This document shows positions 2,907 to 4,790 of a DNA stretch of 7,722 bases, piece after piece. The stretch comes from a virus. Its lineage: Monodnaviria > Loebvirae > Hofneiviricota > Faserviricetes > Tubulavirales > Inoviridae. The notes beneath the pieces were generated by a model that was not told the DNA's origin, did no database searches, and saw only the letters and a list, made by a program, of their open reading frames with translations. Made by a program: the position numbers and the translations under genes. Numbering within the stretch: the stretch's first letter is position 1; the number at the start of each line of letters is the position of its first letter. The stretch lies in IMG/VR virus record IMGVR_UViG_2541047896_000002; one strand, given 5' to 3'.

Positions 2907-4790
2907 GTGTTTTTTATGGGGGCTTTTATGCGCCTGGGCGGTCATTCAGGGTCTGGAAAGTTAGGTATTACTATATTGTCCTTACTGGTTTCATCCGGTG
3001 TACATGCTGATGCAGTAACAGCAGACGGATTTGGACGTGTAATTCAGCAAATGGTTGAAACCCGTGAAGCTCAGGTTGTTTCTCAATCTGCGGGGCGTGT
3101 GTTCGCAACGGGTGCCAGTTCTCTCGGTATGGGCGCGGGTATCGCTGTCGCTGCGGAGGTTATACGCGAACGTCCTGACGTTTTTGATTCAATCCGCATG
3201 TGTGGCGAGAAAGTGGGTAACCCTCAGCTTTGCACCGGAACGTCAGTTTTCGCGGCTGCTTATGGCCTTGCGAAGCATACAATTGACGATTCGATATCTA
3301 CGGGTATTTCAAGTTTTGGCAGTAATATGATGGCTGCCGGACAGACAACATGGGGATTGTTGGGGCAGGCTGCGGGTGTTATTTCCGTTGCTGACCTTGC
3401 TTTAAAGCAGGGCGCAAAAGCTGTTGAATATATTACAAGTGGAATAAAACAGGATGATGGAACTTATTTACTTAATTTGTCCAATGGCGCTACTGTTACT
3501 TCTTCTGTTGCACCTTCACCTAAAAGCCCTGTTGCTGTTTATTTGCCCTCTGATGCTACTGGCTTTTCTGCGAAGAATATTCAGGATTCGATAAACCCTT
3601 ATAATCAGCAGGTTAAACCTGTTCAGATTGCGCCAACCTATTACAATATTGATGCACCACCGCCGATAAGCCAGCCATTTCCGAATGATGTATATCGTGT
3701 GTCAGTAAAGGGTACTAAATATCCTTATTCGACTGATATCAGGGATGCAAAGGGCGATGCTGTACTTGTCAGTGATAATCCGGTAATGATTGCGCTTTAT
3801 AAGTCGATTAATGGTTATTCTCATTCCAATGTGACTTATCATGAGGCTTCTGACGACAATAACTTACATATCAGGATGCCAAGAAATTTTAAGGTTTATT
3901 CGGTTTCCGTTAAAGACTTTCAGTATGAAAAGCCGAATCCTTATTTTGGTGGATATTCATCGATTGTAACTGTTGTTTTATCTGTTGCGACAACAACGGT
4001 TACGCTTGAAAATTCATGGGATTTATGTAAAAGCGAGAAAGTACCTGCGCCGGGCAGTACGGCTGATAATCCCAAAACGCAGTGGAAAAGTATTTGCCAC
4101 CCTGAGAAGGCCGTGTATAAAACGACGAATGATGTTCAGGATGTTAAAGACCAGATATTTTTTAATACAGAATTTGATACATCAACTTTACCTCAGGTAA
4201 TTAATGGCGAGGTTATTGATAATATAGATTTCAAGCCGGAAGAACAGTTAAACCCGGCTGCGCTGGTTAATCTTATTAATGGCCTTGCAGGTCAGACTGT
4301 TGTTCAGGAAGGATATCAGGGGATACCGCTTGATAAACCTTTTACGGCGGCTGAACTGACGGCTGCGGCTAATGCTGTTGGCGTAAAACTTGATAAGGGC
4401 TTGCTTTATAGTCCGGTTGTCGTTCCTCAGTCGTGGGTTAATGCCAGACCCGGTGCGGGAACGGATACAGGTGTACACCCTGGTACAGGCACAGATACCG
4501 ATACTTCTGTTGATTTAGGCGAAGACCCCGGCATTAAAGCGCCGGAACTTGAAAAACCGCCTACAGGTGAGGAAATTCTAAAGCCAATTACGGAATTAAT
4601 GCCGGACATTAAAAATCTGATTATTTCATCGAAGGATGTTCAGTGTCCGGTATGGTCGTTCGAACTCTGGGACAATAAATATTCCATTGATTCTCACTGC
4701 GAGCTTCTGGAAAAAATCAGGCCACTTCTGAAAGCGGTATTCCTGCTTATCTGGGGCATTATTTCGCTGCGTATCATTCTGACTGCGTGA
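2907..4790 (+). CDS. Minor coat / adsorption protein (pIII-like)
   Basis: Large ORF in the pIII position. The annotated start at 2907 is GTG; the likely true start is the ATG at 2928 (MRLGGHSGSGKLGITILSLLVSSGVHA, signal-peptide-like) preceded by GGGGG. A Gly/Thr/Asp-rich linker (PGAGTDTGVHPGTGTDTDTS) and a C-terminal membrane anchor (LLKAVFLLIWGIISLRIILTA) are present. Confidence 0.7.
   Translation: MFFMGAFMRLGGHSGSGKLGITILSLLVSSGVHADAVTADGFGRVIQQMVETREAQVVSQSAGRVFATGASSLGMGAGIAVAAEVIRERPDVFDSIRMCGEKVGNPQLCTGTSVFAAAYGLAKHTIDDSISTGISSFGSNMMAAGQTTWGLLGQAAGVISVADLALKQGAKAVEYITSGIKQDDGTYLLNLSNGATVTSSVAPSPKSPVAVYLPSDATGFSAKNIQDSINPYNQQVKPVQIAPTYYNIDAPPPISQPFPNDVYRVSVKGTKYPYSTDIRDAKGDAVLVSDNPVMIALYKSINGYSHSNVTYHEASDDNNLHIRMPRNFKVYSVSVKDFQYEKPNPYFGGYSSIVTVVLSVATTTVTLENSWDLCKSEKVPAPGSTADNPKTQWKSICHPEKAVYKTTNDVQDVKDQIFFNTEFDTSTLPQVINGEVIDNIDFKPEEQLNPAALVNLINGLAGQTVVQEGYQGIPLDKPFTAAELTAAANAVGVKLDKGLLYSPVVVPQSWVNARPGAGTDTGVHPGTGTDTDTSVDLGEDPGIKAPELEKPPTGEEILKPITELMPDIKNLIISSKDVQCPVWSFELWDNKYSIDSHCELLEKIRPLLKAVFLLIWGIISLRIILTA

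What the first reader, a model, noticed from the sequence alone, without database searches (positions are those of the whole stretch)
2907..4790. Large pIII-like adsorption protein with a TD/G-rich linker and ambiguous start
At 627 aa this is large for pIII. The frame opens with GTG at 2907, but a signal-peptide-like sequence begins at the ATG at 2928, so the mature protein probably starts there. The N-terminal domains determine receptor and host range and show nothing I recognise, while the linker (GAGTDTGVHPGTGTDTDTSVDLGEDPG) and C-terminal anchor are classic pIII. The N-terminal half may be a novel receptor-binding module.
Basis: partly seen in the sequence, partly recalled or inferred. Interest (0 to 1): 0.4.

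Follow-up and report, generated by a model that had tools for sequence, protein, structure and literature searches.

The report
Filamentous-phage tip protein, swappable uncharacterised ectodomain
This gene encodes the tip (pIII-type) protein of a filamentous phage that lies integrated in many gut bacteria; its tail end is the standard virion-anchoring part, while its large outer part matches no known protein or fold and is exchanged as a block between otherwise near-identical phages, as expected of a host-recognition module.

Summary
An ORF runs 2907-4790, an ATG at 2928 opens a signal-peptide-like sequence, the TD/G linker is at 4452-4532, and the C-terminus is hydrophobic.

The start is not ambiguous. 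ATG 2928 has a TGGGGG Shine-Dalgarno 5 nt upstream, and this pair is conserved in divergent relatives, whereas GTG 2907 and ATG 2916 are not. The precursor is 620 aa, with predicted cleavage after VHA27.

The window is a whole dif-integrating inovirus. The gene sits between the major coat gene and a DUF2523 pVI gene, as in 24 of 24 relatives. The last 85 aa form a Cys-flanked beta-hairpin plus membrane helix. They match Pf-type CoaA and "attachment" proteins, and resemble Ff pIII only in pattern.

Residues 28-505 have no Pfam or PDB sequence match, and the model of the whole protein found no fold match. An exhaustive search of 1.84 billion representatives gave 9 hits. The whole gene is under purifying selection (dN/dS 0.04-0.17).

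Two phages with 92-97% identical backbones carry a different ectodomain between the same breakpoints. This supports a host-range cassette, but no receptor is known.

Verdict: a new member of a known kind, uncharacterised and moderately interesting.

The parts
2854..2883 (+). Terminator-like hairpin (AAGGGGCGTAACAGCCCCTT) plus T-rich tail, between gene VIII and gene III
   Evidence: 7-pair stem, 5 G-C pairs. A hairpin is also visible in the upstream sequence of most relatives shown, and IKe has an annotated stem-loop in the same position.
2907..2927 (+). In-frame upstream extension (GTG 2907, ATG 2916); most likely not translated
   Evidence: There is no Shine-Dalgarno upstream of either codon. 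Neither codon is conserved in relatives, whereas the SD and the ATG are. PGAP starts the 97%-identical E. coli G5 gene at the equivalent of 2928.
2917..2922 (+). Shine-Dalgarno-like TGGGGG, 5 nt upstream of ATG 2928
   Evidence: A G-run persists at this position even in relatives that share only about 30% protein identity over the C-terminal third. The 'M-G' of the false upstream extension is this SD read as codons.
2928..4790 (+). Gene III-type CDS: 620-aa precursor (stop at 4788-4790)
   Evidence: PHROG 3942 matches full length, E 6e-196. dN/dS is 0.04-0.17.
2928..3008 (+). Predicted Sec signal peptide, residues 1-27, cleavage after VHA
   Evidence: n/h/c anatomy and hydrophobicity are comparable to the M13 g3p signal peptide. 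AxA-type sites occur at the same place in relatives. No dedicated predictor was available.
3009..3317 (+). Ala/Gly-rich, predicted helical N-terminal region of the mature protein (residues 28-130), with Cys92 and Cys102
   Evidence: Composition and cysteines. The AF2 model shows helices, but pLDDT is below 50. Distant relatives lack residues about 58-100.
3318..3548 (+). Conserved small domain (residues about 131-207): TTWG...GxY...(L)PDG...P.V motifs
3558..4214 (+). Lineage-specific beta-rich domain (residues 211-429) with Cys367 and Cys390; the best candidate for primary receptor contact
4233..4442 (+). Conserved helical domain (residues 436-505) with invariant Y463-x-G465-I-P467
4443..4532 (+). 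Low-complexity TD/G/P linker (residues 506-535)
   Evidence: Sequence. pLDDT is below 50. It is the most variable segment among close relatives (70-82% identity against 88-99% in the flanking segments). It has no tandem-repeat structure.
4533..4787 (+). C-terminal assembly/anchor domain (residues 536-620): short helices, a Cys573...Cys591-flanked beta-hairpin (nt 4644-4700), and a hydrophobic helix 599-620 (nt 4722-4787)
   Evidence: PHROG 7187 E 3.4e-29 and PHROGs 11232, 21195 and 815 at E about 1e-6 to 3e-7. tblastn matches CoaA, 'coat protein' and 'attachment protein'. The same Cys/hairpin/helix arrangement is seen in f1 pIII (Cys354, Cys371; PMC10175506). The cysteines align in register by hhalign.
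4801..5088 (+). Partner gene: pVI-type minor coat protein (DUF2523)
   Evidence: Pfam PF10734 E 1.3e-12 and PHROG 974. A homologue follows the gene III homologue directly in 24 of 24 relatives.
2594..2842 (+). Upstream gene: major coat protein (pVIII type)
   Evidence: PHROG 2186 'virion structural protein', E 2.1e-26. PGAP calls it 'major capsid protein' in E. coli G5.

Best explanation
The gene (ATG 2928 to stop 4790) encodes the pIII-type minor coat protein of a 7.7-kb dif-integrating inovirus of Enterobacterales.

Inferred life cycle, by analogy with Ff phage:
1. The 620-aa precursor is exported through Sec and cleaved after Ala27.
2. The 593-aa product stays anchored in the inner membrane by its C-terminal helix (599-620), with everything else in the periplasm.
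3. At the end of virion extrusion, five copies join the DUF2523 pVI protein (gene 4801-5088). They cap the filament through the C-domain (536-620: short helices, a disulphide-stapled beta-hairpin, a long helix) and release it from the membrane.
4. On the free virion, the roughly 480-residue ectodomain hangs from the tip on the TD/G linker and makes contact with the host.

Within the ectodomain, the lineage-specific beta-rich domain (211-429) is the most likely primary-receptor and host-range determinant. The two pieces conserved across many related phages (about 131-207 and 436-505) more likely serve a step common to all of them. This could be contact with the conserved entry machinery (TolQRA in characterised inoviruses) or coupling of receptor binding to opening of the C-domain.

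The ectodomain behaves as an exchangeable cassette. It is bounded by two conserved stretches: the translation start region, and the start of the C-domain.

Shown here: gene identity and position, the start codon, the domain map, homology of the C-domain to CoaA-type proteins, purifying selection, and cassette exchange.

Inferred: export and cleavage, tip location, receptor binding, and any Tol involvement.
For: Genome context:
- G2P replication protein, ssDNA-binding protein, major coat, this gene, DUF2523, Zot and secretin lie in the canonical order.
- The order VIII-III-VI-I-IV holds in 24 of 24 relatives.

Start codon:
- The SD plus ATG pair is conserved where the upstream GTG and ATG are not. 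PGAP makes the same choice.

Signal peptide:
- Its features equal those of the M13 g3p signal peptide.

C-domain:
- PHROG 7187 E 3.4e-29, and tblastn to CoaA (E 9e-6), 'coat protein' (4e-5) and 'attachment protein' (1e-4).
- Predicted hairpin 576-587 lies between Cys573 and Cys591, followed by helix 591-619. This mirrors f1 pIII Cys354/Cys371 (PMC10175506).

Selection:
- dN/dS is 0.04-0.17 overall and low in most segments with enough substitutions to measure; exceptions are the signal peptide (0.99) and residues 156-210 (0.52) against L020.

Cassette exchange:
- IMG/VR phage L021 is 92% identical in DNA over window 2311-2957 and 4560-7385, but unrelated between them (residues 11-544), giving a 407-aa protein.
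- The E. coli PEC148 prophage is 97.5% and 93.9% identical on either side of 3052-4537. Residues 42-537 are only 38-68% identical there.
- E. coli A37 phage shares only residues 438-620 (44% identity).

Conservation pattern of the sub-domains.
Against: - No experiment or homology ties any part of the ectodomain to a receptor. Pfam, NCBIfam and PDB sequence searches find nothing.
- The fold searches are negative. They used a model of mean pLDDT 59, and only residues about 160-425 are confident.
- The Ff-type TolA-binding N1 domain (PF05357) is absent. The same scan detects it in M13, If1, IKe and a UPphi-like E. coli prophage. Any Tol contact would therefore use an unknown interface.
- Similarity of the C-domain to Ff pIII is below significance (E 0.012-0.036).
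- The C-domain is modelled at low confidence (pLDDT 36-48).
- The signal peptide was judged by anatomy only, not with a trained predictor.
Confidence: 0.8

Rival explanations
1. Translation starts at GTG 2907 (or ATG 2916), giving a 627-aa (or 624-aa) precursor as the mechanical ORF suggests.
For: The frame is open from 2907 and contains start-type codons at 2907 and 2916.
Against: - Neither codon has a purine-rich Shine-Dalgarno upstream. ATG 2928 has TGGGGG at 5 nt.
- In relatives the SD and the ATG are kept while the upstream codons are lost or changed. In some, an in-frame stop lies 9-12 codons upstream of the ATG.
- Protein conservation starts exactly at M-R/C-L/M-G.
- PGAP uses the equivalent ATG.
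- The extension would add hydrophobic residues ahead of the charged n-region of the signal peptide.
Confidence: 0.04
2. The protein is the virion tip and termination protein, but its large ectodomain does not primarily determine the receptor. It acts mainly in the lysogen, for example by engaging periplasmic Tol proteins to exclude superinfection, or as a surface or virulence factor. Adsorption would then rely on a small part of it or on another protein.
For: - There is no receptor evidence of any kind.
- The N-terminal Ala/Gly-rich helical region is unlike known receptor-binding domains.
- Related dif-integrating Enterobacterial inoviruses (YpfPhi, CUS-1) affect host fitness, and their receptor is unknown (PMC4266046).
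Against: - The gene occupies the only adsorption-protein slot of the genome.
- The ectodomain is the one block replaced between otherwise near-identical phages. This is the pattern expected of a host-range determinant. It is not expected of a housekeeping or exclusion function, which should co-evolve with the backbone.
- Every characterised inovirus uses the pIII ectodomain for adsorption (established knowledge; PMC10175506).
Confidence: 0.12
3. The gene is a decaying or chimeric prophage remnant: a pIII C-domain fused to unrelated sequence, no longer functional.
For: Fragmented copies exist in some genomes, for example split ORFs in Citrobacter koseri and Serratia.
Against: - The uninterrupted 620-codon frame is 98-100% identical in ten IMG/VR contigs. 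The protein cluster at 90% identity or more has 353 members.
- dN/dS is 0.04-0.17.
- The full set of inovirus genes is intact around it.
- The phage is present as a tandem prophage, and a relative exists as a 7.4-kb circular replicon. Both are signs of an active phage.
Confidence: 0.03

Closest known systems
Ff (M13/f1/fd) attachment protein g3p/pIII
   Same: - Gene position between VIII and VI.
- An N-terminal signal peptide.
- An ectodomain tethered by a flexible low-complexity linker.
- A C-terminal domain with two cysteines flanking a beta-hairpin (17-18 residues apart), followed by the membrane and assembly helix (PMC10175506).
- A terminator hairpin between VIII and III.
   Different: - No PF05357 (N1, TolA-binding) or PF21443 (pilus-binding) domain, although both are detected in the controls.
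- One TD/G linker instead of two Gly-Ser repeat linkers.
- C-domain similarity is not significant (E 0.012-0.036).
- The protein ends at the helix (…RIILTA) with no cytoplasmic basic tail.
- The partner pVI is DUF2523-type.
- It is 620 aa against 424 aa.
CoaA / pIII of Pf-like Pseudomonas inoviruses (Pseudomonas phage 36-2 CoaA; PMBT54 'coat protein')
   Same: - Significant similarity of the last about 50-65 residues, including CP...(F/L)...DSHC...L..VF...W and the …LSA/LTA end.
- The same gene order, with a pVI homologue (40-45% identical by tblastn; Pfam not run on it) directly downstream.
   Different: Everything upstream of the C-domain is unrelated. The Pseudomonas proteins use long Gly-rich linkers and are 441-483 aa.
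Uncharacterised gene III products of related inoviruses (PHROG 3942; Dulem virus 52; E. coli A37 7.4-kb replicon; Haemophilus and Actinobacillus prophages; IMG/VR contigs L021-L057)
   Same: - The C-domain, the conserved helical domain 436-505 and often the small domain 131-207 are shared.
- The same conserved SD plus ATGCGCYTGGGC start region.
- The same synteny.
   Different: The beta-rich domain 211-429 and the first about 100 mature residues are specific to the Enterobacterales sub-family. None of these relatives has a known receptor either.
YpfPhi / CUS-1 and UPphi, the described dif-integrating inoviruses of Enterobacterales
   Same: - The same lifestyle: XerCD/dif integration, tandem prophages, presence in E. 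coli, Salmonella, Klebsiella and Citrobacter.
- A related gene II/V replication module is shared with a dif-integrated E. coli prophage (UTAK-3) whose PF05357-bearing pIII marks it as UPphi-like by my inference (80% DNA identity).
- The receptor of YpfPhi is also unknown.
   Different: - UPphi gene III is IKe-like with GGGES repeats. The UPphi-like E. coli prophage examined carries PF05357, and this protein does not.
- Direct comparison with the YpfPhi/CUS-1 adsorption protein (PuvA) could not be made, because its sequence was not in the collections I could query.

Membership tests
Inovirus pIII-type minor coat (adsorption/termination) protein, functional class | Gene lies between the major coat gene (VIII) and the pVI gene, upstream of pI (Zot) and pIV (secretin) | tested here: met
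   The same order holds in 24 of 24 relatives.
Inovirus pIII-type minor coat (adsorption/termination) protein, functional class | Cleavable N-terminal Sec signal peptide | tested here: met
   n/h/c anatomy with VHA|D. Hydrophobic core KD is 2.65 against 2.57 for M13 g3p. AxA-type sites are conserved in relatives. No SignalP-type predictor was available, so this rests on rule-based inspection.
Inovirus pIII-type minor coat (adsorption/termination) protein, functional class | C-terminal hydrophobic anchor helix preceded by a Cys-flanked beta-hairpin | tested here: met
   Cys573 and Cys591, strands 576-580 and 583-587, helix 591-619 (low pLDDT). The f1 reference features come from PMC10175506.
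Inovirus pIII-type minor coat (adsorption/termination) protein, functional class | Flexible low-complexity linker between ectodomain and C-domain | tested here: met
   Residues 506-535 are G/T/D/P-rich, have pLDDT below 50, and are the most variable segment.
Inovirus pIII-type minor coat (adsorption/termination) protein, functional class | Five copies at the virion tip; required for release and for infection | not testable with these tools
   Needs virion proteomics or cryo-EM, and genetics.
Ff/IKe/If1-type g3p (Pfam PF05357 Phage_Coat_A; PF21443 G3P_pilus-bind) | N1 TolA-binding domain (PF05357) | tested here: not met
   No Pfam hit for this protein or any of 19 relatives, even at E up to 1. 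The positive controls M13, If1, IKe and the UPphi-like prophage all hit PF05357.
Ff/IKe/If1-type g3p (Pfam PF05357 Phage_Coat_A; PF21443 G3P_pilus-bind) | Pilus-binding N2 domain or fold | tested here: not met
Ff/IKe/If1-type g3p (Pfam PF05357 Phage_Coat_A; PF21443 G3P_pilus-bind) | Significant sequence similarity of the C-domain | tested here: inconclusive
   hhalign gives E 0.036 (against M13) and 0.012 (against a profile of M13, If1, IKe and I2-2). Both cysteines align in register, but the probability is 1.4-3.5%.
CoaA-type pIII C-domain family (PHROGs 7187, 815, 11232, 21195), paired with DUF2523 pVI | Sequence match of the C-terminal 50-115 residues | tested here: met
   PHROG 7187 E 3.4e-29, others about 1e-6 to 3e-7. 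tblastn to CoaA E 9e-6 and to PMBT54 coat protein E 4e-5. 37 more distant IMG/VR loci match at E 3e-53 to 5e-18.
CoaA-type pIII C-domain family (PHROGs 7187, 815, 11232, 21195), paired with DUF2523 pVI | DUF2523-type pVI gene immediately downstream | tested here: met
   PF10734 E 1.3e-12. A homologue lies downstream in all 24 relatives, including the Pseudomonas phages.
PHROG 3942 (unknown function) | Full-length profile match | tested here: met
   E 6.2e-196, profile positions 1-546 of 546, residues 25-627 of the 627-aa ORF.

The most novel reading that the evidence does not exclude
Residues 28-505 may define a previously undescribed class of inovirus host-recognition ectodomain. It would combine an Ala/Gly-rich helical head, a small conserved domain, a beta-rich domain of new fold, and a conserved helical domain. 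It would replace the Ff N1/N2 arrangement and engage the host, possibly including TolA, through interfaces unrelated to any solved pIII.

It would be shuffled between phages as a cassette. The two handles would be the unusually conserved translation start region (SD plus the first about 10 codons) and the start of the C-domain.

Because proteins at least 90% identical to it occur in E. coli, Klebsiella, Enterobacter, Citrobacter, Salmonella and Serratia, its receptor would be a structure common to these genera or carried on a broad-host-range plasmid.
Probability: 0.35. Interest if true: 0.5.

Novelty: new member of a known kind. Interest (0 to 1): 0.3.

Why it matters
Filamentous prophages at dif are common in clinical Enterobacterales, and for the described ones (YpfPhi, CUS-1) the receptor is still unknown (PMC4266046).

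This analysis gives a clean gene model and a domain map for the adsorption protein of one widespread lineage. It also identifies natural cassette variants on the same backbone: the window type, the PEC148/P0015 type and the L021 type. These variants are ready-made material for mapping host-range determinants and finding the receptor.

For phage-display engineering, it points to a pIII scaffold that lacks the Ff N1/N2 domains.

It does not change how inovirus infection is understood. Lineage-specific pIII ectodomains are the expected state of affairs.

Tried and rejected
- Ff-type domains: Pfam and NCBIfam found nothing in the protein or in 19 relatives. The controls are positive.
- PDB by sequence profile: only chance hits to fluorescent proteins, E at least 0.33.
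- Fold searches of the AF2 model:
  - Foldseek against PDB gave best E 0.28.
  - BFVD gave best E 9e-3 with probability 0.11.
  - AFDB50 was not available.
- A second AF2 run on residues 150-505 alone gave the same topology at lower confidence (mean pLDDT 59), so it was not used for searching.
- A second word-indexed homologue search with the family alignment added no new relatives.
- The exhaustive search with residues 28-505 gave only 9 hits.
- Species-representative genomes: the first scan found nothing. The second found only Actinobacillus seminis and Haemophilus seminalis, and only through the C-terminal third.
- Tandem repeats in the linker: none.
- A canonical 28-nt E. coli dif site with up to 3 mismatches: none. 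The site at the window start has a longer central region.
- Literature searches for a description of this phage or its adsorption protein, and for CUS-1 PuvA: nothing usable.
- I considered that the window phage is YpfPhi/CUS-1 or UPphi.
  - UPphi is excluded by its IKe-like gene III.
  - YpfPhi/CUS-1 is unlikely. Only 2 of 5,426 complete E. coli genomes carry this phage nearly full-length. A direct comparison was not possible.
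Full report
**What the window is**

All six-frame ORFs and the family scans show a complete filamentous-phage genome. All core genes are on the + strand:
- replication protein G2P, 873-1988 (PF05155/PF05144)
- ssDNA-binding protein, 2005-2295 (PHROG 8473)
- an 89-aa membrane-type ORF, 2313-2582
- major coat protein, 2594-2842 (PHROG 2186)
- the ORF in question
- a DUF2523 pVI-type protein, 4801-5088
- Zot/pI, 5092-6126
- a secretin/pIV, 6123-7385

A 97%-identical copy sits as a tandem prophage in E. coli G5 and NCTC9040. In E. coli PEC148 and MS20655, close relatives lie directly next to hipA, which is the dif locus. 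The window itself begins with a dif-like site.

**Checking the observation**

- The ORF runs 2907-4790 and is 627 aa with a GTG start.
- ATG 2928 opens a signal-peptide-like sequence.
- The linker string lies at nt 4452-4532.
- The C-terminus is hydrophobic.

**The start codon**

ATG 2928 is preceded by TGGGGG (2917-2922) at a 5-nt spacing. GTG 2907 and ATG 2916 have only T-rich sequence upstream.

I aligned the upstream regions of relatives whose proteins share as little as about 30% identity with this one over the C-terminal third only. The G-run and the ATG, in fact ATGCGCYTGGGC, are conserved. The upstream GTG and ATG are lost or altered, and in some relatives an in-frame stop lies 9-12 codons upstream of the ATG. 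Protein conservation begins exactly at M-R/C-L/M-G. The apparent 'M-G' of longer gene calls is the Shine-Dalgarno read as codons. PGAP also starts the G5 gene at this ATG.

I take the precursor to be 620 aa, and all numbering below is from this Met.

**Signal peptide**

- Residues 1-11 carry net charge +2.
- Residues 12-24 form a hydrophobic core. The best 10-residue Kyte-Doolittle mean is 2.65, against 2.57 for the experimentally known M13 g3p signal.
- V-H-A occupies positions -3 to -1, before Asp28.
- Relatives keep an AxA-type site at the same place.

This is rule-based inspection, because no trained predictor was available.

**Is it pIII?**

By position, yes. In 24 of 24 related loci the homologue directly precedes a pVI homologue, followed by pI and pIV where the contig extends that far; a major-coat homologue upstream was detectable by tblastn in about half of them.

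By sequence, the last 50-115 residues match several things:
- PHROG 7187 (E 3.4e-29) and three further PHROGs
- CoaA of Pseudomonas phage 36-2 (E 9e-6), the 'coat protein' of PMBT54 (4e-5) and an 'attachment protein' of a human-gut inovirus (1e-4), by tblastn; the two Pseudomonas genes occupy the same slot

The AF2 model, at low confidence here, gives two short strands (576-580 and 583-587) between Cys573 and Cys591, followed by a long helix 591-619. In the f1 cryo-EM structure, the pIII C-domain has exactly this arrangement. A beta-hairpin is bracketed by Cys354 and Cys371, ahead of the C-terminal membrane helix. The hairpin, the linker before it and the helix are the part needed for assembly (PMC10175506).

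Profile-profile comparison with M13 alone, or with an M13/If1/IKe/I2-2 profile, aligns both cysteines and the helix in register. The scores are only E 0.036 and 0.012, with probability 1.4-3.5%. The protein therefore works like pIII and is a clear member of the CoaA-type C-domain group. Homology to Ff pIII is plausible but not demonstrated.

**The ectodomain**

*Searches.* Pfam, NCBIfam and a PDB sequence-profile search find nothing in residues 28-505. Pfam also finds nothing in any of 19 relatives. The same Pfam scan does detect PF05357 and PF21443 in M13, If1, IKe and a UPphi-like E. coli prophage. An exhaustive phmmer search of 1.84 billion cluster representatives with residues 28-505 returns nine proteins.

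*Structure.* AF2 on a 20-sequence alignment gives mean pLDDT 59, but 70-92 for most of residues 160-425. The predicted layout is:
- helices for residues 35-150, at low confidence
- a small four-to-five-strand unit, residues 159-207
- an alpha+beta domain with very long antiparallel strands, residues 256-412
- helices at 443-494

Fold searches with this model give no credible match:
- Foldseek against PDB: best E 0.28
- BFVD: best E 9e-3 at probability 0.11

*Sub-domain profiles.* Profiles for each sub-domain were run against the gene III products of 48 IMG/VR loci and reference phages.
- Residues about 131-207 are shared with Pasteurellaceae, oral-metagenome and Dulem virus 52 phages (domain E 3.4e-11 to 8.2e-7).
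- Residues 436-505, with invariant Y463-x-G-I-P, are shared with 23 of the 37 more distant IMG/VR loci, plus Dulem virus 52 and E. coli A37 (full-sequence E 1.5e-15 to 0.016).
- Residues 211-429 are detectable only in the close family.

A few distant relatives (Salmonella P0024, Xenorhabdus P0025, Pasteurella P0026) keep the two cysteines of this domain, at 13-21% identity.

*Linker.* The linker is the most variable short segment. It has no repeat structure.

**Selection and mosaicism**

dN/dS against four relatives is 0.04-0.17 overall and low in most segments with enough substitutions to measure; the exceptions are the signal peptide (0.99) and residues 156-210 (0.52) against L020. The whole frame therefore encodes a functional protein.

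Among near-identical copies, the few amino-acid changes fall in residues 211-425 (dN/dS 0.36-0.41, against 0 in the other ectodomain segments and 0.08-0.15 in the C-domain). The counts are small.

dS differs several-fold between segments of the same pair, which points to recombination inside the gene.

**Cassette exchange**

This is the strongest indirect evidence for a host-range role.
- IMG/VR phage L021 is 92% identical in DNA to the window over 2311-2957 and 4560-7385. It has no detectable similarity between those points. Residues 11-544 are replaced, giving a 407-aa protein on the same backbone.
- The E. coli PEC148 prophage is 97.5% identical over 1-3051 and 93.9% over 4538-7548. Between them its gene III is only 38-68% identical at the protein level.
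- A 7.4-kb circular relative in E. coli A37 shares only residues 438-620.

The breakpoints fall in or just after the start/signal-peptide region at the 5' side (codon 10 in L021, codon 41 in PEC148) and at the beginning of the C-domain at the 3' side.

**Distribution**

Proteins at least 90% identical occur in E. coli, Citrobacter freundii, Enterobacter, Klebsiella pneumoniae, Salmonella and Serratia. All are annotated as hypothetical. The family is already catalogued as PHROG 3942, function unknown.

I found no paper that describes this phage. The described dif-integrating Enterobacterial inoviruses differ or could not be compared:
- UPphi has an IKe-like gene III.
- The YpfPhi/CUS-1 adsorption protein was not available to me, and its receptor is also unknown.

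**Mechanism, with its status**

Shown:
- gene model, synteny and domain map
- relation of the C-domain to CoaA-type proteins
- purifying selection
- cassette exchange

Inferred from Ff biology (PMC10175506):
1. Sec export and cleavage.
2. Anchoring in the inner membrane by helix 599-620.
3. Co-assembly of five copies with the DUF2523 pVI to cap and release the virion.
4. Display of the ectodomain on the TD/G tether.
5. Receptor binding, followed by opening of the C-domain and membrane insertion.

My assignment of residues 211-429 to primary-receptor binding, and of the conserved segments 131-207 and 436-505 to a common step, rests only on conservation patterns. That common step could be Tol contact or signal coupling.

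**Verdict**

The 'ambiguous start' is resolved. The 'novel receptor-binding module' remains a reasonable but untested idea about an uncharacterised, already catalogued protein family. It is a new member of a known kind and is of moderate interest.

Noticed in passing
window 2-34 and 7700-7722: The window starts with a dif-like site: GGTGCGCATAA-TGTTTGACTCG-TTATGTTGAAA. It has XerC- and XerD-type arms but an 11-nt central region. The same sequence, with one difference in the central region, lies between hipA and the prophage in E. coli PEC148. The window ends with …TTATCTGCGCAC, an inverted XerC-arm-like sequence. The window therefore looks like exactly one phage unit cut at its attachment site.
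   Followed up: partly
window about 25-95 and about 490-540; L063 2501-4016: Two short non-coding stretches of the phage match, at about 91% identity, the two flanks of 1.1-1.5 kb single-gene insertions. The first stretch is the hairpin GGCCGCTGCG…CGCAGCGGCC next to the dif-like site. The second is the hairpin-rich stretch at 490-530, which also matches the If1 major intergenic region and Alteromonas phage phiAFP1. This pattern was seen in 10 of the 14 sampled rows of a search that matched 838 E. coli records (583 places on chromosomes, 456 on plasmids). The insertions carry SIR2, Shedu-nuclease or STM4504/CBY_0614 genes. In strain WCHEC96200 the insertion sits at the dif/hipBA locus. This looks like small dif-integrating elements with defence cargo that share the phage's cis-acting ends, and so might be satellites of it.
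   Followed up: partly
window 2917-2951 and equivalent positions in L020-L060: The translation start region of gene III (TGGGGG, a spacer, then ATGCGCYTGGGC…) is conserved at the nucleotide level, even between phages whose gene III products share only their C-terminal parts (about 30% identity there). It coincides with the 5' breakpoint of the L021 swap; the PEC148 breakpoint lies about 30 codons further in. It may act as a recombination handle or a translational control element.
   Followed up: partly
window 2313-2582: The slot occupied by the two 32-33-aa genes VII and IX in Ff, IKe and If1 holds a single 89-aa ORF here. It has a hydrophobic C-terminal segment (PHROG 3679, unknown function; no Pfam match). 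It is conserved in relatives (34-97% identity). It may be the start-end cap protein of this lineage.
   Followed up: no
window 1-7722: G+C content rises from 32% (1251-1750, gene II) to 57% (7001-7500, end of gene IV).

Modules are exchanged independently:
- Gene II is 74% identical in DNA to If1 and 80% to a UPphi-like prophage.
- MS20655 carries the same structural genes with a different replication module.

The phage is a mosaic.
   Followed up: partly
L060 (NZ_CP195780.1, whole record): A 7,439-bp circular 'plasmid unnamed4' of E. coli A37 is a complete related inovirus genome (genes VIII, III, VI, I, IV, II and V). The same strain also has a chromosomal copy. The record is probably the replicative form of an active phage deposited as a plasmid.
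   Followed up: partly
IMG/VR loci L022, L025, L029, L030, L040 (gene III N-termini): In these more distant relatives the mature N-terminus has an (F/M)GQAI..V.E motif, then GFAANDPRF, then a roughly 45-residue Gly/Ala-rich stretch hydrophobic enough to be a membrane hairpin. The window protein has a milder version (FGRVIQQMVETRE … VFATGASSLGMGAGIAVAA; 19-residue KD mean 1.49). What a hydrophobic glycine-zipper-like hairpin does at the outer end of a virion tip protein is unexplained.
   Followed up: no
window 102-368 and 561-749 (- strand): Two small minus-strand ORFs (88 and 62 aa; PHROG 37184 and PHROG 5219, unknown function) lie between the dif-like site and gene II. This is the position where other integrating inoviruses keep regulators and accessory genes. 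The 62-aa ORF is annotated in the E. coli prophages.
   Followed up: no
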